This document shows, piece after piece, positions 8,944 to 63,370 of a stretch of 64,000 nt of DNA (positions are counted from its first letter, which is position 1; every line of letters begins with the position of its first letter). The notes under the pieces are model-generated. The model did not search any database and was not told the origin of the DNA. It saw nothing but the letters and a program-made list of their open reading frames with translations. The DNA comes from Lama glama (lineage: Eukaryota). Both the position numbers and the translations under genes were made by a program. The DNA is taken from contig CM052845.1 in NCBI GenBank assembly GCA_028534125.1, positions 22,072,001 through 22,136,000 of the forward strand, written 5' to 3'.

Positions 8944-9109
8944 TATTTCAGGTCAACCACTAATGAGGTATGCCTTGTTGGACCCTAATATGAAGTCAGT
9001 TCAAGTCGAGGTGGTTAAATTAATTTACTTGGGCTTAAATCACTCCACCAATAGGCCACGTTTCTCTGGTTTCTCTGTGCTTGGCAAATAGTGTCCCAGA
9101 TTGTGTCAA

Positions 9110-9730
9110 ACCCCTCCCGTCCTTTTCGGTGTCCCCCTGGTCGCGGTTCCCCAGCAGCAGCCTGACCACAGGCGCTCCTCTCGGCGCCGATGCGCGCGGG
9201 CTGCCTGCGTCCCCACCCGCGCGCCGTCGGCGGGCTGAGCGCCGAGCGCCCAAGGAGACGGAGAGCCCGCGCACGTCAGACGCCAGACCCACACGCGAGT
9301 CGCTCTTCCTAGGCCCCTCCTTCCGCGCTGGGCACTGCGTCGGTGTCGCGGACGCCCCCTCACCGCGCGTCGTTCGGGGCGAGGAGGGCGGGCGCCGCCG
9401 CCTCCACGTGCGCGTCCCGCGACCGCGGGCCCCTCACGGCTTGCGTGGCGCGAGGCTCGCGCGGGCTTGGGCAGGCCGAGCTGCTGCGTACTGCGTTCTT
9501 GAAGGAGGGTCCAGGAAGGGGTCGCGAACGTAGCTGTGGTGATTGTTGCGCAAAGGCGGCCGGGACGCGGGTGACGCGGGTGACGCGGGCGCGCGGGGAG
9601 GCCCGCCGTGCGGGGCCCTTGCAGGCGCTCAGCTCAGCGCCTCGTGCGCGGTGCCCGCGCCGCCGTAAAGCGCCCTGGGGGCTGTTCTGCCTCCCTAGAG
9701 ACTGCGTGTCTCTTCTAGGATGCGGGTTAT
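9110..9730. promoter_or_regulatory. CpG island 1, probable promoter
   Basis: Very high GC and CpG over ~600 bp; CCAAT near 9048, CACGTCA near 9272, E-box CACGTG near 9405, C/EBP palindrome TTGCGCAA at 9546-9553, tandem TGACG half-sites. Confidence 0.85.
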
Positions 9731-12594
9731 TTTAAGTTGCTTCCTGGGAAAGTGGTGTTAGACGTACAGTGATTCTGCGGGGCGGCTTTTGGCAGGGTTG
9801 GGGCAGCAGACAGAGGCAACCACGGATGCCCTGGTCCCCGAACCGTTTGAATTTCCCCAAAAAGGGGGAGTGGGCGTCCTTCATTTCCACGTATGGAAAT
9901 TTCCTCTGTTTCGTAAATGATTTGGAAACTGCGCTTTCCGAACCACGCTGGACTAGAAGAGCTCAGCTCCGCCGACTCTGGTGGTTGTAACTGCTGAGGT
10001 CGGGAAGGGGAGCCTAGGCTCGCGGCAAAGCAGGGGGATCGGCCGTCCTGCGTCTTCTTTCTGGCACCGCAGGAAGTTCCATTGTAACGACTGACAAGTC
10101 CGTCTCCAGCAGCTCAGGCTGTGGGGAAAGAGAAGCGACTGCCGGGCTGGGCCTTGACAGGAAGACAGCTACCCCCGGTGGCCGGGAAGGCTGGGGAGGC
10201 GAGAGCCTCTTTGTGGCTTCAGATGCAGCCCATCTGAATTTCAAAACGCCAACATTTTAAGGCAGTCCGAGAGGAGGGGTAAAGTCTGACTGTCGTGAGC
10301 AAGGAGGGAAGGGTTCTCAGGGCATCCAGCCTCCTGCCTCGGGCCTCTCCCCGTGAGGTCCCTGCCTGCACCTGCCTTCCTTGCAGATGTGGCCGGGTGT
10401 CACCCACAGCGATTTCCAACACTCTGCACTCCCAGCCAGAGCGGTGGAAATGGAGCTGTCAGCACCGAAAATGCAGATACCTCCGCAGAAATTAAGTAAC
10501 AGCGCAGGCGGAGTGCGCTGCGCTCTACAGGTCCCTCGTGGGTAACATGACTCAGACCATCTTCTCTTTTCACGGGGCTGCAGACTCATCCTGAAGAACA
10601 ATTGCGTGCGTATGGAGGACCCGGTGGGGCTGACCCAGGAGCGGGAGCTGCGGCAGACGTGGGCTTTACAGTCCTGCTGCTTTCTGGTTCCCCCGTGTTG
10701 GCAGTGCGTGGAACTTAGCCTTTTTTCTCTCCCCTTCCCAAGGGAAGTGCCTGAGGGGCTCATTATTTCTGACGTGGAAGCTCCATCAGGCTCATCGTTT
10801 GCTCTTATTGGTGGATTTCAGTGGGTCCGAGGCCATCCCATCGCACCCGATGCGAAGTGGGTGGGTGGGCGCTTTCTGCCGCGTTCCTGGTGAGAGGCTG
10901 TCCGGAAGCTGCTGCTCACCCTCCCTGATCAGGACCGCCTCTGCCACCGCATTCCTGAGCCCTGCGACGCGCCCTCGTCTTCCCGAGGGCTTTTAGCCTG
11001 TTTTCTCACTGGGTCTCGTCGACCCCAAGGAGGTAGGTGGCAGGTGACTTGCTCACGAAGCAGCCCTGGAACTGAAGTTTAGAGTCTCAGTAACTTGTTC
11101 AAAACCATCCAGCTGGTGAGGAAACCTCAATGAGCCTTAGAAGCCTTGTACATTCTGCTCTAAGAACAAATTTGTTCAGTTTTTGTCCAAAATTTTATTA
11201 AACTGTGAGACACACGTTCCCTCAGTCAGTCCTACCCCCACTCCAGGTCATCGCCATTTTCCTTTTTTGTTTATTTCCTTGATGTTTGTCTTTCTGGCTG
11301 TTCTCTCTAAATCAGAGATCAGACATCTGTGTGGCATCAAAGGCCTTTTGTCCTCCCCCCTTCCCCACCCCAGGAACTTTCTGCGGTGGAGTGTCTCCTA
11401 GTCTGGCCAGCGGGGCTCATCACGAACTACTGATGTTTCTGTTTTAAATTTTAAATCATACGTCACTATCCATCTGTGTAGCCACATCACGTTGAAGTCA
11501 GTCTGGTACAAAGTTTGGTCTGTCCTGGAGAACCCCAGATTCACTGCCTATAAGAGTTTTTGAAATAATGCAAATAAATCAAAGACCCACGTCACAGAGT
11601 CTGAGGTTCCCAAGGGGTTTGGAAGCACCACCTTGTAAATTTCGTTCTCTCTTTTGCTCGGCTGTCACTGGCTCTTCGTGACGTTGAGGAGGCCTTTCCC
11701 CAGAGATGCGTCTTCTCCCTCACTGCCCTGTCCTGCCTCGTTGAGATTTGTCGTGCCCCCGCGTCCCTCCTTCAGTCCATCACTTCACCCCTCTCTTCCA
11801 CCCTCCTGTGCGGGCCGTCTGCCCTCCAACAGCACCAGGATAGTGTGAAATGGAAGGTTAATTATTTAAGGAACATTTAACACCGTGAACGTGCAGTTCA
11901 CGTCTAGTGCACATTGAATGCTTATCCTTTGACTTCACCAGTTTCTACCGACATCAGCATCCTTTCCCTTACGCTGCCAACCTAGGAAAGAGCTTTCTTA
12001 AAACCTGTTTGTTTTTCAGTGCCTGTGAGAGGCCCTGCTTGGCATCCCATGTGGCAGAGAGAATGGCCAGCTCATCTGCCTGGTGTTACCCACGAGGACA
12101 GAGATCGGGCTGTGTTTACCTCTGTGTTCTCAGTCTATCATGGCTTTGTGTGCTCAGTAAGAATCACTGGACTGAATCCTGACCAAAGCATTACTTTCCT
12201 CATGCATATTTGAATTTTAATGGAAACTTGAAAAGAAAGGGAGAAGGAAGAAGTAGGGGGAGGGGGAAAGAGGTAAAGGAGAGAAAAGGACGTTAGCTTA
12301 AGGAATCGCACACGATGGATTCGGTGGATTAATGGGAGAATTTTATGGAGGCACTTACCTTTGTAAAACGTCTATATTAATATCTCTGGGTTTGCTGTGA
12401 TTGCTCAAGACCTAAATTCTATCTCTTTTAAACCTAAATTGATGAAATCTCATGAATGTTCAGCAGTACCTCATAGTAAGATGAAATCTCTTGTATCGCG
12501 GGGAAGGAGGACGTGGCATCTCAGAAACCTCAGGGGCCACTGTAACCTCAGTGAGGTGTGTGAAGAGCGCTAACGGATTTAGTGCATCCCATAA

Positions 12595-13097: not shown

Positions 13098-13206
13098 TTT
13101 TTTGGTTGTTGTTGTTAATGGAGGGGCTGGGGATTGAACCCAGGACCCCGTGCATGCTAAGCATGTTCTCTGCCACTGAGCTATCTATACCCTCCCCACT
13201 CCAGCA
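13098..13206 (-). mobile_element. tRNA-derived SINE (camelid Vic-1-like)
   Basis: Reverse complement reads ggggagggtatagatagctcagtggcagag...gtcctgggttcaatccccag (Pol III A and B boxes), A-rich tail, approximate TSD gggtagg(g)tttt. Confidence 0.88.
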
Positions 13207-19095: not shown

Positions 19096-19232
19096 GGGGA
19101 GAGTGTAGCTCAAGTGGTAGAGCGCATGCACAAAGTCCTGGGTTCAATCCCCAGCACCTCCTCTAAAGGTAAATAAGCCTAGTTACCTCCCCCGTGCCAA
19201 AATAAAAATAATACTGTAATAAATAAATAAAG
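19096..19232 (+). mobile_element. tRNA-derived SINE (camelid Vic-1-like)
   Basis: ggggagagtgtagctcaagtggtagagc (A box), gggttcaatcccc (B box), AT-rich tail with aaat repeats. Confidence 0.9.
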
Positions 19233-32714: not shown

Positions 32715-34170
32715 TGATTAATAGATAATCTTTTAGAGCAGCTATAGGTTTATAGAAAAATTGAACAGAAAGTACAGAGAGTTCCCACAAACGCCCCCTC
32801 TTCCTTCTCGCAGTTTTCCCGGTTATTAACAGCTTACACTCGTGTGGCATGTTACATTTGTTGCAATTAACAGACCAACATTAATGCATTTTTATTAACT
32901 AACATCTACAGTTTACATAAGAGTACATTCCTTTTGTTGTATAATCCTCTGACTTTTGACCCATATGCATGATATCACCTATTCATTCTTATAATATTAT
33001 ACAGAATGGCTTTATTTCCCTAAAGTTCCTACAACACCTAAAATCGGGGCTCCACCCGTTCAGCCTCCCTCCTTCTGAACCCCTGGCAACTGCTGGGCTT
33101 CATACTGTCTCCATAGTTTTACCTTTTCCAGGACATCATACAGTGAGAATCACACAGCATGTAGCCCTTTCATTCTGGCTTCTTTCCCTCAGCAATATGC
33201 ATGCAAAGTCTCTGCATGTCTTTTCATGGCTTGATAGCGCATGTTTCTTAGCACTGAATCACGTCTGGATGTACCAGTTTATCTGTTCATTCACCTACTG
33301 AAGGATGTCTGGATGCTTCCGTATTTGGGCATTTATGAATAAAGCTGCTACAGATATTTCTGTGCAGGGTTTTGTGTGGACATAAGTTTTCAACTATTTG
33401 GGTAAATACCAAGAAGCATGCTTGCTGGACTGTGAGGTCGGAGTAGGTTTAGCTTTGTAAGAAACTGACAGGTTGTCTTCCAAAGCGTCTCTAATATTTT
33501 GCATGCCCAGCAGCAGTGAATGAGAGCTCCTTCTGCTCCACACCCTTTGGTGCTGTCAGTGTCGTGGATCACAGACATGCCGATGGAGACACAGGTCTCA
33601 TGGTTGTAATTTGTGGTTCACTAGTGATATACACTGTGGAGCATGCTTTTTTGCCATTAGTGTAACTTCTTTGGTGAGAGAGATTTAGCACATTTTAAAA
33701 TTGGGTTGTTTACTTTATTACTAGTAAAAGGATTCTCTGTATATTTGGGATAAAAGTCCTTTATCAAGCGTATGTTTTGCTAATATTTACTGCCGTTCTG
33801 TGGCTTGTCTCTTCATTCTCTTAACAGTGTATTTGATTGCAAAAGCAAAAGTTTTTCATGTTAATGACGTCCACTTACCAATTTTTTTCTTTTATGGATC
33901 ATGCTTTTGATTTCTTATCTAAAAAGTCATCACTGAACTCAAGGTCATCTATATTTTTTCTTACATTTTCTTTCTAGAACTTGTGTAGGTTTGCATGTTA
34001 CCTTTAGGCCTGTGATCCATTTTGAGTTAATTTTTGTGAAAAGTGTAAGTTCTGTGTCTAGATTCTTTTTTTTTTTCTTTGCATGTAGACATCCAGTTGT
34101 TCAAATACTATGTATTGGAAAGACTCTCTTTGACCATCCATTGTGTTACCTTTGCTCCTTTGTATTTCCA
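32715..34170 (-). mobile_element. L1MC-like LINE 3' portion
   Basis: tttagagcagctataggtttatagaaaaattgaacagaaagtacagagagttccca (L1MC 3' end) continuing into antisense ORF2 (gatccattttgagttaatttttgtga). Confidence 0.9.
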
Positions 34171-37945: not shown

Positions 37946-38518
37946 TGTAGGATAAAATAAAGGGAAAGAAAAATAACTTCCCCTCTACCCTTCTGGGTGA
38001 TAGCTGAGACCCTGTAATAAAAGGTAGATGTGCAGGAGTGAGACACACAGATATTTGATTAACATATTGACCATATACATGGAGATGCCCAGGGGAAAAA
38101 TGAGCTACTCTCTGAGGTGGCTTAGAATTCAGGCTTAAATACTTGAAGAGATTTGTAGGCCTCCTAGGGGAGTGGAGATGATTTTTAGGGACGGTGAAGG
38201 GTCCTTAGAGGAGCAGACAGGACGTGTGCTCGTCTGTGACAGCGTGTCAGGGTGTGGTGTCGACTTCTAGTCTCCTCTCTTGACAAGAGTCAGGCTTCCA
38301 TGGTCAATGAAACTCTGGGAGGGGATTTGTGACAGTTGGTCCCTTTTGGGGGCTCTGTCTCCAGGCAGATAAGGGGAGTTCAGAGAAAGCCTCTCCCTGC
38401 AGTTACTGTTTTCCAAGTATCCACCGCTCCACGTAAGCGTGTACCCAAGGGTGTACTTTGGGGTGTGTCCCGAACTCCTGCAGTCACATTTTTGGGTGAC
38501 ACACTCTGCCACCCTTCA
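37946..38518 (-). mobile_element. ERV1-class solo LTR (MER34-like)
   Basis: Starts tgtagg and ends ...gtactttggggtgtgtcccgaactcctgca (38482), then a second similar terminus ...tttgggtgacacactctgccacccttca (38518); both resemble the reverse complement of the MER34 5' end. Confidence 0.65.
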
Positions 38519-53585: not shown

Positions 53586-53700
53586 TGTGTCTCACACAGC
53601 TGAGTATTAGCTACAATGTCTCAGAGATTTTTCTAGAGTATTTCAAATGAGGCATTTAAGCTATTTTGATCCATTTGGTACATATTAGATCCCATGAATT

Positions 53701-53876
53701 TTTTTTTGTTGCTGTTGAGAGGAGTTTCTGTTATTAGCAGGTTCGTTTGTTTGGTCAGGCCACATCCCAAAGATAGTTCAGGTCATCTGTTAATAACAGT
53801 TCATAAAAACACGTATATTAAACAATTCATCTGCATTATTCCTGATTTTAGAATTCTGGCTGCATCCTTTGTGATA
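53701..53876 (+). repeat. Inverted repeat, left arm (176 bp)
   Basis: Ungapped match to the reverse complement of 56107-56282, 18 mismatches by manual alignment. Confidence 0.95.
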
Positions 53877-55184
53877 ATGTGTCTGTAACCGTAAACGCCA
53901 GACCCGTATTACAGGAAAAACATTCCATGAGTTCAGCTGATGGTGGGAATGCCTTTAAGGATTTTATTTTCCAAAACGCGAGGGGCTGTTGTTTCAGAAA
54001 CTAGTATCCTCATGCCTTTTCCACTGAAACAAAAATCTGAGCACTTGCAGGGAGGTCAAGCATCCATTTGGACCCAATTTTCAAAGGGGATGTGACTCAA
54101 AAGGGGCTGAGAAGAGGCACGTGAAATATCTGGCTGTGTGCTTGACAGCCAGTGCTGTTGCAGCTGAATGACCACTGTACCAGGACAAGGAGACACATAT
54201 TGAAATGCTGAGATTTCCTGCTCAGCAGATTCCTGCAAGAACTGCCTCATTGTTGGGACCAATTGACAATGACCCAACAAGACATAGTAAACAAAAAAGC
54301 TACAAAGCCAACATTGTATTTTCCACCTGGCTGGTCTCACGGTCTCTCTGCCGTAATTTTTGCTTGAATTTGACAGCTCATCACTGGTGAGCATGTGCTG
54401 TGTGTGCATCTCAATCTTGCAACCACGAAGCTTAGAGCCAAATTGACAGTGATTGCATTTAAGGATCTGTCAGCTCTAGGATGCACAAGGATTCACATGG
54501 TTTTCACAGAAATACTGAAGCCAAAGTACTTAGGAGTGTAACTGCTGTTGTTAACTCAGATTTCCTGAAAGCCTGTTGCGCGGCCAGAGTCCCAAGTTTG
54601 CCCAGTGCTGTGAAAAAAAAGTGCAAGTGAAAAATGGGGAGATTTTGCCTTATCGTCTGTCTGTTACCTAGTAGTTGAAATAAAATATAGGTACAACCAT
54701 AACGCAAAACATAATGGGATGATTACAATCAGAGTGGGGAAAATTGCGTGCGAAACTGATTTGGATGAGGGAGTGATCTGTTCTACCTGGAAATAACCAG
54801 AAATGACTTACTCATGAGGTGGCACCTGAACTGGGTATTGCAACCGCCCATCTGTGTGTCGACTGCAGATAAAGTTAAGCGCACGATATTAGGAAAAGTG
54901 TAAGTGGGGATGGGAGAGTGTAGGCAACGGCTTAAAACCATTGAGGGATGTTAACCTAGACAGAAGTGCAAGCAAAGAAACAACAGAAATGCTGATGTCG
55001 TGAAAATTGTGTTCGGCTAGATTGAGAGATTTGAAAGTTATTCTAAAGAATATGTGTATTCTTAAATTGGGAGACGACCTGAACAGAGGAAAGATATGGA
55101 GATAGATAAGGAGAGACAGTTATCTGAGGACTATTTTCTTTAATATTCATTTCAGCCATTCACATCGATACTCTCATTACACCC

Positions 55185-55330
55185 ATTGACACCATTATTA
55201 TACCATTGTCTGAATGAGGTAGTTGAGGCCCAAGGACGCTAAAGAACCTGCCACAGCACCCAGCTAATAACTGACCTAGCCGTATTCAAATGTGTTCATC
55301 TGCCTTGGAGCCCGGGCCCTTTGACAGTGA
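55185..55330 (-). mobile_element. MIR fragment
   Basis: attattataccattgtctgaatgaggtagttgaggcccaaggacgctaaagaacctgcc...cagctaataa...attcaaa. Confidence 0.65.
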
Positions 55331-55610
55331 TTGGGGTCCTGCCTCCCAGCAGGTAATAGCATGAGATCAGTCGTACGGCAGTGGTAACACTTAGATGCTG
55401 CCACAGTTTCTAATGGGAACCTAAGGCTCTGGTTCAGCTATAGATCCAAACCAGACATTTCCTCTTGGCCATTAGCGCCCATGATTTTTCAAAATCAGAT
55501 TTTAATTTTTGGACATTTTAGATGTACATAATTGTTAAGACACTATAGAGAGGTCAGGCCTCCTCTGCTGTGCTGTAAGGCCACAATTAGTATTATGTGC
55601 TGCGTTGACA

Positions 55611-56040
55611 TGTGAAGCCAGAAGAGCCTTGAATGGCCTCACCACAAACTTCCCTCCTCACTCTGTTTCTGCAAATAAAGTCCCCAAAGCCAGTCTTCCG
55701 TATTAAATGGACCAAATGCAGTTCCTTCTTATCTCCGAGTGGTGGGTTTTAGCTCCCTGGTAGCTGTGGAAAGACTCAAACAAGAGGATGACACCTTCCT
55801 GTGGGAGCTAGTGGCACCTCACCCTCTGGATACTACAAAGCCTGCCTCCTGCTGCTCCTGATTGTCCTCTGTGTCCTGAGTACAACCCCCCGTGGTGGTG
55901 TCCCACTGTCCCCAAATGTACCTCCATTACTGCGTTTACTCCTCCCAGGACCCCTTTGTGTTCAATGCAGAGTCTGTCGTATATTCATTAAGGATGCCGT
56001 AAAACTGACGTCCGGGAAGGGACGCCACACGCCCTTAGTT
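55611..56040 (+). mobile_element. Probable ERVL-class LTR (MER77-like)
   Basis: Begins tgtgaagcc; LTR-like internal motifs (ttccctcctcactctgtttctgcaaataaagtcccc, ttcttatctccgagtggtgggtttt); family assignment uncertain. Confidence 0.45.
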
Positions 56041-56106
56041 ACGACGGAGAGCAGAAGGCGCCACCCCAAAGTACGCCTCTTTGGCATGGGGAGTTTTTTG
56101 AGTGGA
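56041..56106 (+). mobile_element. Truncated 5' end of a MER34-like ERV1 LTR
   Basis: gagcagaaggcgccaccccaaagtacgcctctttggcatgggagttttttgag resembles the MER34 start (..cagaatatgccaccccaaaatatgcc.ctttggcataaggattattttgag). Confidence 0.6.
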
Positions 56107-56282
56107 TATCACAAAGGATGCAGCTAGAATTCTCAAATCATGAATAATGCAGATGAATTGTTTAATACACATATTTTCACGAACTGTCATTAACAGATGA
56201 CCTGAACTGTCTTTGGGATGTGACCTGACCAGACAAACGAACCTGCTAATAACAAAAACCCCGCTCAACAGCAGCAGAGAAA
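56107..56282 (-). repeat. Inverted repeat, right arm (176 bp)
   Basis: Reverse complement of 53701-53876 at ~90% identity; the ORF track shows near-identical peptides (..ISRFVCLVR.HPKDSSGHLL..) on opposite strands. Confidence 0.95.
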
Positions 56283-56289
56283 CGTTTTT

Positions 56290-57250
56290 TGACTTTAGCC
56301 CGGGGGGCAGGGACGTGGAAGGGGGAGGATGGAAACCTCCCGCAGGAATGCAGGAACGACGCAGGGGCCCCGGCCCGAGCGCTGCTCTCACGCCACCGCC
56401 TTCCAGGTCCGCCGTCTCTGAAGGAAACTGGGGCACGAATCCCGCGTGTGGCAGAGGGGCAGAGAGACGGACAGAGGTACTGCGGGCGTCGGAAGGGGAC
56501 TTTCTCAGAACAGACACGCGCTGAGCTCGGGGAGAAGCGCACTCAGGCGCCCAGGTTTAGCGTCCGTGTGTGCACACGGTGTGTGTGTGTGCGCATGTGC
56601 GGCCGGAGCCCGGGTGCCCTGGGCACGCCTGCTCTGGGGGGCAGGCCTGGGCACAGACGCCCCCCCCCCAGTCTTGCGGCGCTCGGTTCTTCGATGTCTG
56701 TAGTGGGGACCAGTGTCCCTCATCTCCAGCGTCCTGTCCCATTTGCCGCAGAACTGTACGTGCTGGTGCAGCCCCAGGACGTTCGGTCTCCTGCCTCACG
56801 CCCGTCCCGGGGTTACCGGTGGGGCCTGCGCTGGCGCCGGGATCCGGGGCCTCCTCTGCTGCGAGTCACTGTGTGTGTGTCTGGGGAAGCGTCTCTCCTC
56901 GCGGCAGACTCGGGGGTGGCGGTTACCGCCCCACCTCTCAGGGGTCCCTGGAGGTGAAGGTTAGTCAGGGCAGCGCCGAAGCTTCCAGAGCCACACGGCT
57001 CTGCGGCTCAGGACGTCCGGGTTCACCCTTGCGGCAGCGGTCACCCCTCGGCGGGCCGTGCTTCCGCGGCCGCCGCCTACCGCCGGGGCGCAAGTAAAAC
57101 AAGAGCAGAGATCATTTGCTTTTACCTTTTTGAAAGCGAAAGTCTCTCATCTTCCGCGTAGGGAACTTGGCACACCCGGCATAGACCCAAAAGCTGACTC
57201 TCACCCCGGGGGGAGCAGATTCACCGCGTGATCTCAGGCCGTCACGTTTG
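56290..57250. promoter_or_regulatory. CpG island 2, probable promoter
   Basis: About 950 bp of high GC/CpG; NRF1-like GCGCATGTGC near 56591; MYB-type GGCGGTTA at 56918-56925; + strand donor AAG|GTTAGT at 56960. Confidence 0.8.
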
Positions 57251-58004
57251 CTGGCTCTTGGTTTCCTTAGCGTTAAAATTAAGATGTTGGAATAAACCAT
57301 CTCTCATGTCTTCCCAGCTCTCAAATTACGTGATGCTACCAGTTTTAACAAATGTGTTAGTTTTGCCAGCATAGATTATTACCTGCTGCTTCAGAAAAAG
57401 TTGAACCATTTTAAATTTGAGATTTTAGAAAATCTTGGTTTCAGAGGTATTTAAAAAAAAACAGGGAAAAAAATTCAACCATTAATTTTTTCTAAAGAAT
57501 ATCCTGTCTTTTACACTTTTCTGTTTTTATGCTTCTGGGTATAGAACTAATACAAATTAGAAGTAGAACAATTAGCACCGAAGTTGCAGTCCTGCCGGAA
57601 CGGGCGTGTGGAATTAGATGGCGCTCCCACATTTGTTACTCTAAGACGTGGTTCAGGATCCCCGCTGACTTGCTAATTATGAATGGGGAGGGGCTGTGAT
57701 TGGTGTCCTGTGACTCTCCTTGATGTTTCTGCCAGGAGCTAGATTACCTTGGCAAACCTCACAAAACCCTGGGCTCTTAGCTTACGCCTTCGCCTCATCT
57801 GCAAGGATTTATTCTTAAGATGTCCCAGTGAAACAGGTCAGCCGTGGGAGTCCCAGACCACAGAAGGATGAAACGCTCTTCTGACGCATTTCTCGGGAGG
57901 TCCAGGTTTCAAGTAGAAGTCACAACCAAAATTAGAATGGAAAATGACTGGTCTGCGTCCAACCCAGGAGCCGCCAACACCGGAGAGGACAAAGCGCGAC
58001 CCAG

Positions 58005-58175
58005 TCTCGACCTGGTACAAAGCTGATTTAACTTTCATGTCACATCCAAGTGCTAGCAGGAGAAACAAGGGCTTATAAAGAATGTCATCGCAACAGGTTT
58101 GTAAGAATGTTTTCTTTACCTTAAATCCATGTTGTCTTCTACAAATAACTTTCATTCTGGTGAAGAAAAGCACAT
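58005..58175 (-). mobile_element. CR1/L3 LINE reverse-transcriptase fossil
   Basis: Minus-strand VICRRQHGFKVKKTFLQT resembles the CR1 RT motif VI..SQHGF.K.KSCLTNL, followed by a degenerate DV..LDFSKAFDKV-like segment (tggatgtgac...gctttgtaccaggtc). Confidence 0.5.
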
Positions 58176-59269
58176 TCTCTCAGTACATAAAGTGTTTAAT
58201 AACAAGGTCATGAGTAATAATTGTAATACTGATCCTTATTTTGCTAATTCTGTGTCTATCCAGTCCTTTAATACATCCTGTTAGCAAAACAGTCGTTTTT
58301 TGTAAAGACTGAGTTTTCAGGTGTCTATATTATTCTTCCTTAAAAGCAACAGCAAAATGAATTCACCTATGTTCCTGAGTTTCCGTGTTATCTGGCAAAC
58401 TAGAGGATTTAGATGTCAGCTGATACTTCATGATCTTCAAATTTCTTTCATTTGGCTTATTCGGCATACGATAGTTGTGGGATATTTGCCATAAATGAGA
58501 CCATGAAGGAAAAGGGGCATTTAACTTGTCAATAATTCTGATTTCCACAGATTTTCAAAAGAATTGCGGATGTGAAGGAGCCTGAGTGAAATTCGACCTG
58601 AAATAAATTTGCTGCTTTCAGAGAAGGATAGAGAAAAAGGAAAAGGAAAGAGAGACTTAGACGATTTGCTGAACTATCTTCTCCTGTGTAATTAAAATAG
58701 ACGTCAAGTTACAGTTTAAATGCGTACGCGATAACTGTCTAGCTTAGTGTTCATAAAATGAAATGAGTTTAATTTGATAGAAAGGGCGAAGTTAATTTCA
58801 TTTATACGAACTGACCCAGTGCAGAGAGAGAGACGTCAAAGTGAGAGCACAGAATGCCAAACGTGTGTTGGACCTGATAAAGCCAATGTAGCGTCGTCCC
58901 CCGACTGACCACTCCGGTTGACCTGAGAGAGAATAAATAGTCCGATACCCTGCAGAAGACAGAAAACAAGGACCCAACTGTTCTGTCACCTCCGTAGTGA
59001 CCAAACTATCTTTAGCACAGTAACCCCACAGGATGTTTTAATGCGCGGGCGACGCCTTAAAGGAAAGAGAAAATGTTTGGAAAGCACTGGATCTGATATG
59101 AGGCGTCGCCGCTGCCTTGGACGCCTACCTCTGTTTTGTGTGCTAGAACCTCCGAGAACAAGGCCCTACATACTTGGAAGCACCTGGTACCTCTCTGTAC
59201 CATTCCTATAGTGACACTGCTTCAGAGCTGAAAGCGAAAAATTGGAAAGCTTTAAAGTGTGGAGAAATC

Positions 59270-59690
59270 ATGAATGTTTGAAAACATGATGAAAGAGGTC
59301 CATCAGACAATGGCATAGGATTGCGTGCTAAAAACAGATGAGGCAGCAAGCTGTGAAGAGACGTGGAACAATCTTAAACACATGTTGCTAAGTGAAAAAA
59401 AACAGAAGTCTGAAAGGGCTACCTAGTCTGTAATTCTAATTATGTGACATTCTGGGGAAGGCTGCACGCTGGAGACAGGGAAAAGATCAGTGGACAACAG
59501 GAGTTAGAGCTGGAGAAGTAGGGGCTGGATGAACGATCAGAACACAGAGAATTTGGGGGCTGGTGGACATACTCTGTAGGGTCCTACAGTAATGGATACA
59601 CGTCGTTATATGTTTGACCAAAACAAGGGGACGTACACCACCAACAGTGAACCCTGATGTATTGTAAGTATTTTTAAAAAATAATAATGC
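59270..59690 (+). mobile_element. L1MC-like 3' UTR fragment
   Basis: tcttaaacacatgttgctaagtgaaa...tctgaaagggctac...tgacattctgg...atggatacacgtcgttatatgtttgaccaaaac...gtgaaccct. Confidence 0.85.
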
Positions 59691-59699
59691 AGGCATATT

Positions 59700-62655
59700 T
59701 ATAAAGTCTTTGTGGAGAAACCAAGAACTAAGAGGAAATTTATGTCTCTAAAGGCAAATACCACAACATAAGAAAGGCTATTACTTCTATAAGTATTTAT
59801 CTAAGTAGTCATTTAAAATTTTTTCAAAAAGAATAGCAAATTGAACCCAAAGAAAGTAGAAGGAAGGAAATTAAAAAAAAAAAGAACAGACTAAAATCAG
59901 AAAATAACATGGAATATTAAAGTCAGTGAGGTAAGAAGTTAATTGAAAACCTTAATTAAAATGGATAAACTCTAGCAAGACTGATAAAGAGATAAAGCAG
60001 AAATTAATATGTACCATTAAAAGTGAAATGATAAAACCTGTACCCTAATTTTTGCAGACATTGAAAAATCTGGACAGGATATCATGCCAAATGACTTAAA
60101 ACTTGAAGGTAAAATGAACAAGTTCATAGAAAAAGAGTAAAACACAATTACAGATTCAAGAATAAATAGAAAAATCTAAGTAATACTATATTTATTCAGG
60201 ACACTAAAACTATAGCTAAAAATTGCCTTATAAAGAAATGTGCAGAATCAGATGACTTCACCAGTGAGCTTTTCCAGACATTTATGAAAGAAATAACAGC
60301 AGTCTTTCTCATGCCCTTTTATAGAAATTAAAGAAGAAACAAAAAAGCAGGGAAGTTTCCACACCTATTATGAAACTGCACAACTCCAAACACCACAATA
60401 TGATGAGGACATGACAGGAAAGGAAAACTGGAAAGTTACAAGCCCACTGCTCACACGAAAATAGATTTTTAAAAAAACTAGCAAATTGAACCTAGAAAGT
60501 TATAAAGAGAAAGTCAAATCAAAATCATGTGAGTTTATTTCTGGAAGCATTTCTCTGAGTTTTTTTTTTTTTGTAACATTTGATAATCACAATTTCCCTT
60601 ATTATGTAAATAAAAAAGCAAAATCATATAATCATTCCAGTGCACGCAGAAAATACATACAGTGAAATTCAAAGCTAGCATTATCAAGACATTAGCAAAC
60701 TCTGAGGAAAAGAGCTGCTTCAGTCTTGTACGGATGATTGAACAACACAGGAAAATACACATCATACTTAATGGTCAATTACGGAGAATGTTTCTTCTGT
60801 CATCTGGAATGAAACAAGGACGCCTCCTCTCACCACTTCTATTCAGAATTGTATGGGAGGTCACGGAGAGAGACGTAAAGCATGGAATGGGAGTGAAAGG
60901 CATGCAGATTTGAAAGTAAGGAATAAAATAAGATTTTTTAGGAAATCCAAAAGAATGTGCAATATGTAGGAATTAAGCACATAACTTTAGCACAAATGCC
61001 AATATAAAGCCAGCATAAGACTTAATTTCATTTCTATATGCAACAGCAACCAAATAGCAAATGGAATGTTAAACTTACACTGTTTTTGAGGTATTACAAA
61101 GCATCAAATAACCGTGCGTACATCTAACAAAGATGTGTATGCCTATAAACGGAAAACTGCAAGACATCATTGAGATGAAGTAAGAGGAAGCTAAATACAT
61201 GGAGGGAGGCAAAGTGGTTCTTGGATTCGAAGACAAAAGACTCAGGTCTCCACATGTTGGTCTCAACATTTGATGCAATTCAAATACAAATCTCAGAAGT
61301 GACTTTGTATGTTTCTTTCTTTCTATCTATCTATCTATCTATCTACCTACCTACCTACCTACCTACCTATTTGTCAACATTGACGTACTCATCCTAAAAC
61401 ATCCTAAAATTCTTACTGGAATTCAAGGGTTAAGAATAATCAAGATAACCTTGAACAAGAAGAACCAAGTTGAAAGTTTCATGGTATCAAATATCAAGAC
61501 GTATGATCTAGGCAGAGTCATTAAGACCATGTAGTATTGGCACAGGGTAGATAAATGGATGGGACAGAGTAGAAAGCCCCAAAATGTTCTGTCATTTGAT
61601 TGATGACAGTCATGCCTCTGCAATGCAGCACAGAAAGACTCTTTTTACAATAAATGATAATATTAAATATAATTGATACCAATTGGATATTCATTTTAAA
61701 GAATTGTCACAACTGAAATTACACATAAAAAGCTCTTCCAGTTACTTCAATAAATATTTCTTCAGGATTAAAAAAAGGACTAACCATAAAGGAAAATACC
61801 AATAAATTATACTAAACTGATGATTTTTATCATAGAAGGACTCCACTGAGTGAAGATTCTTTCCAGAGAGTGGGATGCGATATTAGTCATATGTATATCT
61901 GACAAATGACACAGAAACAGAATCTATAAAGAACTCCTACAAATATTATAAACGACAGAGCGCCTACTATAAGTATAGGCAGAAGAAGATTTCCATATGG
62001 ACAGTAGATGCATGAAAATGCTGACTTCTTTCAGTGTTAGACTGAGGCTAATTAAACCCCAAAGTGGCTTAAATGTCAATACTAAAAATACCGATTGTTC
62101 ACAAGGACGAGAAGCAGCTGCTGGTGAGAGAGAAGTTACCACAACCACTTTGGAAAACTTGTGTAATTTGTACTAAACCTGGAATAGTGCCCATTTGGGG
62201 GCCAACTCTCTACCTCTTGAAATTACCCAGAAGAAAATCATGTATCTGTTGGGGAAAAGATATTCGTACACGTGCCCATAACAAACTAATGCAGAGTAGC
62301 CCCCAAATTGGAAATAAATAAAAGGCTTGTATGAATAAATAAATGTTGAGGTATCTGTACAGTGAGAAGAAATTAATTTCTATTACAACAGAAGTGCATG
62401 CATAGATCTCGGGAACAATTCTGCTTTGGGGAAGCCACATATAAAAGTGGACAGTTATGATTCCATTTATATAGAATTTAAACCTGAAAGAACGTCCTAG
62501 TAGAGATGAGTCAGCATACTTATTACTCATGTGGAAGAGACGCTGGAGCCCACATTGCATGGCTTCATCTGGGTTATGGTGACACAAGGTTGTTCATTTT
62601 GCAAAATCCACTGAGTCAAAATATGTGATATTCAGTATAAAGTTTACTTTAAAAA
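59700..62655 (+). mobile_element. Old L1 (L1ME/L1MD-like) ORF2 to 3' UTR
   Basis: A-rich; degenerate ORF2 peptide SGMKQGRLLSPLLFRIVWEV (cf. L1 RT GTRQGCPLSPLLFNIVLEV); L1 3' UTR motifs to ~62650. Confidence 0.9.
61323..61370. repeat. (CTAT)n(CTAC)n tetranucleotide microsatellite
   Basis: Directly visible inside the L1. Confidence 0.95.
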
Positions 62656-62679
62656 AAGTTCACGGGGCTGAAGAGTTGG

Positions 62680-63370
62680 CCTTGAGGGGATCAAAATACA
62701 AGATGGGAGTTGCTTCAGGGAGCAGATGACCGAAGACTCTTGGGACGAGGGTTTTTGTGATGGCGGAGGTGAGAGTTCTTCAGCTCCAGCACGCTTGCCA
62801 ACGGGCTGAGAGACGCAGAGGATTCAAGGATGGCTCCGTGCTACTTGTCCTGGGCACGCTGGAGGAGGGAGCTGCCTCGCTCGTGTTGAGAGGGGGAAGG
62901 CTGTGGGAGGACCAGGATTTGAGTGGAAGGACAGACAGTTGCCTTTAAGATCTATAAAACTATTGAATCACTATGATGCGCACCTAAAACTGATATAATA
63001 TTTTAAGGCAACTGTACTTCCATATAGACGTATTATTTTTTCTTCAAAAAAGGATCTGTCATTTGGGATATCTACAGTAAATGTTCAAGTACAGATGCTG
63101 AAAATACGGTTGTATACGGAAACTTGGAGATCTGGAGACTGTCAGGTGATGCTGATCTGTCAAATAAGGTGTGGACAGGAGGCTGGCCAGACTTTAGAAC
63201 ACAGCTGTTAATGATAACCTTGACAAGGTTATCATTTTTTCTATTTCAAGTGGAAAGCCAGGCTGGTAGTTTTAACAGAGAAGGCGAAGAGAGAATTGAA
63301 GACGGGCAAGTCCAGACAGCTCTGCTAAGAAGCTCTGCGGCCAACGGGAATGGGCCCGCTTGGAGCTGTT
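62680..63370 (-). mobile_element. L2 fragments, with a short L1 3' end at ~62965-63020
   Basis: ggattcaaggatggctcc...gatctgtcatttgggatatct...gtggaaagccaggctgg...gggcaagtccagacagctct. Confidence 0.55.

What the first reader, a model, noticed from the sequence alone, without database searches (positions are those of the whole stretch)
53701..56282. 176-bp inverted repeat next to a CpG island: candidate long dsRNA hairpin locus
Seen: 53701-53876 aligns without gaps to the reverse complement of 56107-56282 with 18 mismatches (~90%); the spacer is 2230 bp. I do not recognise the arms as any transposon family. The right arm starts where a MER34-like LTR fragment breaks off (56106) and ends where CpG island 2 begins (~56290). 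15 of the 18 differences are transitions. In a minus-strand RNA from the island, 9 of them would be G.U wobbles (167/176 paired), versus 6 in a plus-strand RNA. Established: intramolecular stems of this length are substrates for ADAR editing and for Dicer (oocyte endo-siRNAs). Inference: either a promoter-proximal hairpin RNA system, or a rearrangement scar whose arms are homogenised by gene conversion and could flip the 2.2-kb spacer.
Basis: partly seen in the sequence, partly recalled or inferred. Interest (0 to 1): 0.75.

Follow-up and report, generated by a model that had tools for sequence, protein, structure and literature searches.

The report
Old local inverted-duplication scar
A 176-base piece of DNA stands twice, in opposite orientation and 2.2 kb apart, in a stretch of a likely camelid genome with no recognisable coding exon; it is most likely an old, ordinary DNA-copying scar of a common kind, and nothing here shows that it works as an RNA hairpin.

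Summary
The hints of function fail as statistics: G.U bias p=0.61, transition excess p=0.08-0.21, no conversion tract (longest identical run 26, 31 expected). The right arm looks like the pasted copy. It interrupts an LTR head, is AT-rich between GC-rich flanks, and alone is bracketed by a 9-bp direct repeat (null P=0.0014). Size and spacing fit the commonest human inversion-type variant, inverted duplications under 1 kb placed within 5 kb of their source, attributed to template switching. The arms differ by about 11%, so the event is old. An RNA through both arms is predicted to pair 161-163 of 176 bases. However, editing of human Alu pairs is weak at this distance, and oocyte endo-siRNAs were found in mice only among 11 mammals. 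Expression, editing, genome-wide copy number, orthologs and spacer orientation remain untested: no assembly was held and no reads were laid. The scan noted the same kind of scar before, on other DNA, in this genome (e1-9930471) and another (e1-7510086). Verdict: real, ordinary, probably neutral.

The parts
53701..53876 (+). Left arm, 176 bp; likely the original (donor) copy
   Evidence: GC 0.35 between flanks of 0.31 and 0.43; no direct repeat in its 20-nt flanks, longest shared word 3 nt. Donor status is inferred.
56107..56282 (-). Right arm, inverted copy, 89.8% identical; likely the inserted copy
   Evidence: GC 0.39 between flanks of 0.53-0.56 and 0.67; interrupts an LTR head; bracketed by a 9-bp direct repeat.
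53877..56106 (.). 2230-bp spacer, unique within the window, ending in the LTR head
   Evidence: No self-match below E=0.4 elsewhere in the window; no Rfam match; no Pfam match in its stop-to-stop frames of 45 aa or more.
56093..56101 (+). 9-bp direct repeat, upstream copy, 5 nt before the right arm
   Evidence: The only 2 exact matches of this word in 64 kb, both strands, are the two that bracket the right arm; null P=0.0014 for a shared word of 9 nt or more in 20-nt flanks.
56284..56292 (+). 9-bp direct repeat, downstream copy, 1 nt after the right arm
56040..56108 (+). 5' head of an LTR-like element, broken off at the arm (MER34-like is a recalled label); its last 2 nt may overlap the first 2 nt of the arm
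   Evidence: Anchored alignment to the in-window LTR-like copy scores 59 against a maximum of 49 in 150 shuffles; the arm does not continue the LTR (P=0.40); resumption after the arm is inconclusive (P=0.07). The 2-nt overlap comes from one of two alignments.
56283..57100 (.). CpG island next to the right arm; promoter activity and direction untested
   Evidence: GC 0.68, CpG o/e 0.81; donor-like sites on both strands with similar scores.
37946..38518 (-). LTR-like element (TG...CA) used as the in-window reference; not part of the repeat

Best explanation
The repeat is most likely a fixed local inverted duplication, in which the left 176 bp were probably copied backwards into a junction 2.2 kb away by a replication or repair template switch, and the two copies have apparently drifted neutrally since. 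Shown: two ungapped copies 11% apart (K2P 0.112 +/- 0.028); the right copy cuts off an LTR head, is compositionally foreign to its flanks and is bracketed by a 9-bp direct repeat; the arms show no terminal repeats, Pol III boxes, intrinsic fold or conserved reading frame. Inferred: synthesis stalled in the LTR head, jumped to the opposite strand at 53876 with at most 2 nt of microhomology, copied 176 nt and returned. The return re-copied or used the 9-nt word, and the rest of the LTR was lost or has decayed beyond recognition. Inferred age: roughly 25-28 My (14-42) at a recalled rate of about 2e-9 per site per year, so probably older than the Camelini-Lamini split at about 16 My. Any read-through RNA would form the stem as a by-product and would be only lightly edited; no function is needed to explain anything seen.
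For: Class match: in PMC4617611 (passages) 54% of 229 resolved human inversion sites were inverted duplications, nearly all under 1 kb, inserted within 5 kb of the other copy and not typically tied to retrotransposition. PMC12350158 (passages) reports 277 of 733 non-MEI inversions as inverted duplications, median 284 bp, mostly with 1-15 bp microhomology and a suggested replicative origin. Junction asymmetry: 9-bp direct repeat at the right arm only (P=0.0014), LTR head cut at the arm, GC contrast. Neutral pattern: G.U p=0.61, transitions p=0.08-0.21, no conversion tract, 11 of 58 codons changed in the one frame open in both arms. No terminal inverted repeats (best 9 of 20), no A/B box, fold z=0.55 and 0.57, no Rfam match.
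Against: No outgroup or empty-site allele was seen, so donor and copy are assigned from junction anatomy alone. Genome-wide copy number is untested (no assembly held; no reads laid). A 9-bp flanking direct repeat with a T-rich word is also what retrotransposition leaves. Whether the LTR resumes after the arm is unresolved (P=0.07; 1 of 30 real GC-rich controls scored higher). The microhomology at the LTR junction appears in only one of two alignments. The direct-repeat test was chosen after seeing the sequence, on two arms.
Confidence: 0.72

Rival explanations
1. Two independent insertions of an unrecognised low- or middle-copy dispersed repeat that happen to lie 2.2 kb apart in opposite orientation.
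For: Copy number could not be tested genome-wide. The left arm ends in an A9 run on the minus strand and the right arm has a flanking direct repeat. Two SINE copies in the window form such an inverted pair by chance (I2).
Against: No terminal inverted repeats, no A/B box, no TG...CA ends, no direct repeat at the left arm, no A-tail on the right arm, no third copy in 64 kb, no look-alike among the scan's noted stretches.
Confidence: 0.1
2. An inversion of the 2.2-kb spacer made by staggered breaks, which duplicated the arm at both ends; or a cassette that still flips by recombination between the arms.
For: The geometry A-D-spacer-D'-E is the same. The spacer shows about zero G+T skew, against +0.10 at 10-53 kb.
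Against: 11% of 2230-nt windows at 10-53 kb are as low, and the skew is also about zero outside the spacer at 57.1-59.3 kb. This model gives the 9-bp direct repeat no role. No conversion tract; the longest identical run is only 26 nt, short for homologous recombination (own knowledge).
Confidence: 0.08
3. A selected dsRNA hairpin locus: an RNA through both arms forms a 176-bp stem that is edited by ADAR, diced, or regulates the island's transcript.
For: The whole 2582-nt span folds with 163 (minus) or 161 (plus) of 176 arm pairs in register. The right arm abuts a CpG island. There are no indels between the arms.
Against: No compensatory or strand-biased signal. In human Alu pairs editability falls exponentially with a scale of about 800 bp (PMC4066801); the distance term is 0.18% at 2230 bp against 2.56% at 100 bp. 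Endo-siRNAs were undetectable in 10 of 11 mammals' oocytes, mouse excepted (PMC10964541; camelids not seen in the passages read). Four AATAAA/ATTAAA words lie within the span on each strand. Only 8 of 156 21-nt windows are fully Watson-Crick paired.
Confidence: 0.06
4. An L1-mediated retrocopy of a short local transcript, inserted by chance next to its source.
For: 9-bp target-site-like repeat; the T-run followed by GA in that word resembles an L1 endonuclease site (recalled).
Against: No poly(A) tail at the expected end; 5 extra nt on one side and 1 on the other; retrotransposition has no known reason to land 2.2 kb from the source (own knowledge). The upstream word may be native LTR sequence.
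Confidence: 0.04

Closest known systems
Human 'Inverted Dup' structural variants (Sudmant et al. 2015, PMC4617611; Schloissnig et al. 2025, PMC12350158; passages read, supplements not read)
   Same: A short segment (176 bp; published under 1 kb, median 284 bp) copied in inverted orientation within 5 kb of its source (2.2 kb), with sharp non-homologous ends.
   Different: Apparently old and widespread (11% arm divergence), not a recent polymorphism; empty allele not seen; carries a 9-bp flanking direct repeat, which the passages read do not describe for this class.
Inverted Alu pairs edited by ADAR (Bazak et al. 2014, PMC4066801; abstract and passages)
   Same: Two inverted copies about 90% alike that are predicted to form a long stem in a read-through RNA.
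   Different: Arms are shorter (176 vs about 300 bp), not a recognised SINE and 2230 bp apart, where average editing is about 14-fold lower than at 100 bp; no transcript or editing shown.
Mouse oocyte hairpin endo-siRNA loci (Dicer-O pathway; PMC10964541, abstract and passages)
   Same: Long intramolecular dsRNA is geometrically possible.
   Different: The pathway was detected in mouse only among 11 mammals; no small-RNA data here.
Earlier scan notes e1-9930471 (112-bp inverted copy near JAKMIP2, same genome) and e1-7510086 (187-bp inverted copy 1.8 kb away, another genome); unchecked AI notes
   Same: Same geometry and size class, read there as template-switch scars.
   Different: Those flank or copy coding exons; this one lies where no coding exon was recognised.

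Membership tests
Local inverted duplication (Inverted Dup) | Duplicated stretch under 1 kb | tested here: met
   176 bp
Local inverted duplication (Inverted Dup) | Second copy inverted and within 5 kb of the first | tested here: met
   2230 bp between the arms
Local inverted duplication (Inverted Dup) | No long homology at the junctions; 1-15 bp microhomology | tested here: inconclusive
   No flank homology. A 2-nt overlap with the LTR homologue appears in one of two alignments; 9-bp direct repeat at the right arm.
Local inverted duplication (Inverted Dup) | Ancestral or alternative allele with one copy only | not testable with these tools
   No assembly held; run search reaches near-identical sequence only
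Local inverted duplication (Inverted Dup) | Source is not a dispersed repeat | tested here: inconclusive
   No third copy in 64 kb; collection scans uninformative because the SINE control also gave 0
Transposable element (MITE, SINE, LTR) | Terminal inverted repeats | tested here: not met
   Best 9 of 20 identity between the ends of either arm
Transposable element (MITE, SINE, LTR) | Pol III A/B boxes, or TG...CA ends | tested here: not met
   No match to simple recalled box patterns; ends read directly
Transposable element (MITE, SINE, LTR) | Target-site duplication at each copy | tested here: not met
   Right arm only; the left arm's flanks share 3 nt at most
Transposable element (MITE, SINE, LTR) | Match to a repeat library; many genomic copies | not testable with these tools
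L1-mediated retrocopy | Poly(A) tail inside a target-site duplication | tested here: not met
   The bracketed right arm has no A-tail inside the repeat at either end; the A9 run is at the unbracketed left arm
ADAR-edited inverted repeat | Stable long stem if co-transcribed | tested here: met
   Predicted 161-163 of 176 pairs in the full-span fold; prediction only
ADAR-edited inverted repeat | One RNA spans both arms and carries A-to-I changes | not tested
   No reads were laid on the locus
Hairpin endo-siRNA locus | 21-23-nt reads with 2-nt overhangs confined to the arms | not testable with these tools
   No small-RNA library among the 24 runs listed
Conversion-homogenised inverted repeat | Identical tracts or clustered mismatches beyond chance | tested here: not met
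   Longest run 26 vs 30.8 expected, P=0.71; gap variance P=0.60
Curated RNA family | Rfam match at gathering score | tested here: not met
   0 matches in the whole window against 4227 families

The most novel reading that the evidence does not exclude
A one-off template-switch copy next to a CpG island created a camelid-specific, non-repeat 176-bp RNA stem that was kept because it acts on the island's transcript (editing, retention or processing): a regulatory dsRNA born from a single replication accident instead of from paired SINEs.
Probability: 0.06. Interest if true: 0.55.

Novelty: new member of a known kind. Interest (0 to 1): 0.13.

Why it matters
As read here it matters little: it is one more old example of the most common inversion-type variant described in human genomes. 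Such scars are a non-transposon source of potential dsRNA, and this one is a clean two-copy clock for neutral drift beside a CpG island. It would matter more if an RNA through both arms were edited or diced and the arms were conserved across camelids. Two searches found no paper on this locus or on camelid inverted-repeat editing: one search listed 7 papers, all on plants, and one search listed 6, none on this by title. The library lacks most subscription papers.

Tried and rejected
Own genome: none held, so no genome-wide copy count. Sequencing runs (4.5 kb around the repeat, 468 words): 18 of 24 rows hold 0.89 or more of the words. Leaving out 3 possible sources, 15 rows from 6 studies and 3 organism labels remain; these shares show the stretch in other animals but cannot exclude loss of one arm or a flipped spacer. 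2 of 24 rows are RNA (one study) with a share of 0.14; an RNA through both arms would hold about 0.57. Collection scans with arm words: viral 1 hit, chance; metagenomes 0 but the SINE control also 0, so uninformative; prokaryote genomes 0. Host gene: 596 of 639 stop-to-stop frames of 45 aa or more were scanned against Pfam. Six weak hits appeared, none at gathering score; only RVT_1 at 60632-60910 is credible, as an old L1 remnant. No tRNA. The 72-aa frame open over the left arm gave 3 hits among 1.84 billion proteins, 23-35% identical over short repeated stretches; two were compared pairwise and rejected, one with no alignment and one a tandem-repeat protein. LTR resumption after the arm: inconclusive. 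GC drift of the right arm (12 vs 6) is not significant, p=0.24. One recalled paper on template distances of breakpoint insertions was not held and is not used. Paper searches found nothing, and nothing relevant.

Full report
Observation. The repeat is exactly as reported. The arms are 53701-53876 and 56107-56282, 176 nt, 90% complementary and 2230 nt apart, far longer than any other of the 29 inverted pairs in the window. Self-blastn gives E=1e-62, no gaps and no third copy. The 18 differences are 15 transitions and 3 transversions; 9 would be G.U in a minus-strand RNA and 6 in a plus-strand RNA. Homology stops sharply at both ends. K2P distance is 0.112 +/- 0.028, so this is not a collapsed or duplicated assembly read.

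Setting. No coding exon was recognised: 596 of 639 stop-to-stop frames of 45 aa or more gave no Pfam hit at gathering score, and the one credible weak hit is an old reverse-transcriptase remnant at 60632-60910. There is no Rfam or tRNA match. The camelid label comes from earlier notes on this genome and from a SINE I recognise from memory; I did not test it. The plus strand has a G+T excess of 0.10 (95% interval 0.07-0.13) over 10-53 kb, and 0.09 with four old L1-like blocks left out. In human genes such an excess marks the non-template strand (PMC10030826, passages); replication can also cause it. It falls to about zero from 54 to 59 kb. The island at 56283-57100 is real (GC 0.68, CpG o/e 0.81) and has donor-like sites on both strands.

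The hints of function do not hold. Each transition yields a G.U on one strand by construction, and 9 against 6 gives p=0.61. Fifteen transitions of 18 gives p=0.08-0.21 for neutral fractions of 0.65-0.72 (assumed). The longest identical run is 26 nt against 30.8 expected, and mismatches are not clustered (P=0.60), so there is no trace of conversion. The 67-nt paired run on the minus strand has P=0.12. One frame is open across both arms, but 11 of 58 codons differ and a search of 1.84 billion proteins gave 3 weak hits, two of them checked and rejected. Neither arm folds on its own (z=0.55 and 0.57), and neither has terminal inverted repeats or Pol III boxes.

The junctions are asymmetric. A 9-nt word occurs exactly twice in 64 kb, at 56093-56101 and 56284-56292, on either side of the right arm. 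A shared word that long in 20-nt flanks arises in 0.14% of random placements; the left arm's flanks share 3 nt. This test was chosen after seeing the sequence. The right arm (GC 0.39) sits between flanks of 0.53-0.56 and 0.67, while the left arm (0.35) matches its flanks (0.31, 0.43). A TG...CA LTR-like element at 37946-38518 served as an in-window reference. The DNA just left of the right arm is homologous to its head (score 59, maximum 49 in 150 shuffles), and the arm does not continue it (P=0.40). Whether the LTR resumes after the arm is open (P=0.07; 1 of 30 real GC-rich controls scored higher). One of two alignments puts a 2-nt overlap between the LTR and the arm. The family name MER34-like is recalled. 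Together these mark the right arm as the likely insertion.

Mechanism. The best reading (0.72) is a local inverted duplication by template switching. Synthesis in the LTR head jumped to the opposite strand 2.2 kb away, copied 176 nt and returned at or through the 9-nt word. In PMC4617611 (passages) 54% of 229 resolved human inversion sites were inverted duplications, nearly all under 1 kb and within 5 kb of the other copy. In PMC12350158 (passages) they were the commonest non-MEI inversion class, 277 of 733, median 284 bp, mostly with 1-15 bp microhomology. I read neither paper's supplements, which may hold junction details. At a recalled rate of about 2e-9 per site per year the arms split roughly 25-28 My ago (14-42). 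That is probably before the Camelini-Lamini split at 16.3 My (PMC6899786 and PMC12337305, passages). The steps, their direction and the age are inferred; no outgroup was seen.

The hairpin reading. The 2582-nt span is predicted to pair 163 (minus) or 161 (plus) of 176 arm positions, so any RNA through both arms would likely form the stem. That is a property of every such duplication. In human Alu pairs editability decays with a scale of about 800 bp (PMC4066801, abstract and passages); the distance term is 0.18% at 2230 bp against 2.56% at 100 bp. Oocyte endo-siRNAs were found in mouse and in none of 10 other mammals (PMC10964541, abstract and passages); I did not see camelids in the passages. 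Four poly(A)-signal words lie within the span on each strand. I give a selected hairpin 0.06.

What is untested. No assembly was held and no reads were laid. Genome-wide copy number, expression, editing, small RNAs, orthologs and spacer orientation are therefore all open. The run search shows the stretch in 15 rows from 6 studies once 3 possible sources are left out, but shares of 0.89-0.95 do not resolve the arrangement. The metagenome negative is void because a SINE control also found nothing. A dispersed repeat (0.10), a staggered-break inversion or flipping cassette (0.08) and an L1 retrocopy (0.04) stay as rivals.

Verdict. A real, old local inverted duplication of a well-described class, probably neutral. 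The scan noted the same kind of scar on other DNA, near JAKMIP2 in this genome and in another genome; those notes are unchecked and are not counted as support. Interest 0.13.

Noticed in passing
window 37946-38518 (-): A 573-bp LTR-like element with TG...CA ends, homologous to the LTR head at the right arm; family name (MER34-like) recalled only.
   Followed up: partly
window 9100-9750: Strong CpG island (GC 0.72, CpG o/e 1.11) with no coding exon recognised anywhere in the 64 kb; may be the start of a long first intron or a non-coding gene.
   Followed up: partly
window 1-53000 versus 54000-59300: Plus-strand G+T excess of about 0.09-0.10 up to 53 kb that falls to about zero from 54 to 59 kb; could mark the end of an old plus-strand transcription unit or a replication feature near the second island.
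   Followed up: partly
window 13115-13157 and 19124-19166: Two copies of a tRNA-type SINE in opposite orientation 6 kb apart; 76 of 95 aligned columns identical. The same kind of chance stem as the finding, only shorter.
   Followed up: partly
window 59300-62700 (+): A-rich old L1-like remnant with a weak RVT_1 hit at 60632-60910.
   Followed up: no
window 33105-33260 and 59319-59478: Inverted match of 67.5% over 160 nt, likely two old copies of one repeat.
   Followed up: no
window 53670-53885 (+) and 56038-56556 (-): One reading frame is open across both arms (72 aa and 173 aa stop to stop); 11 of 58 codons differ and no credible relative was found, so it looks like chance.
   Followed up: yes
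whole window: CpG o/e is above 0.5 in 40 of 128 500-bp bins, many at 35-50% GC. That is high for mammalian bulk DNA and weakens CpG islands here as promoter marks.
   Followed up: no
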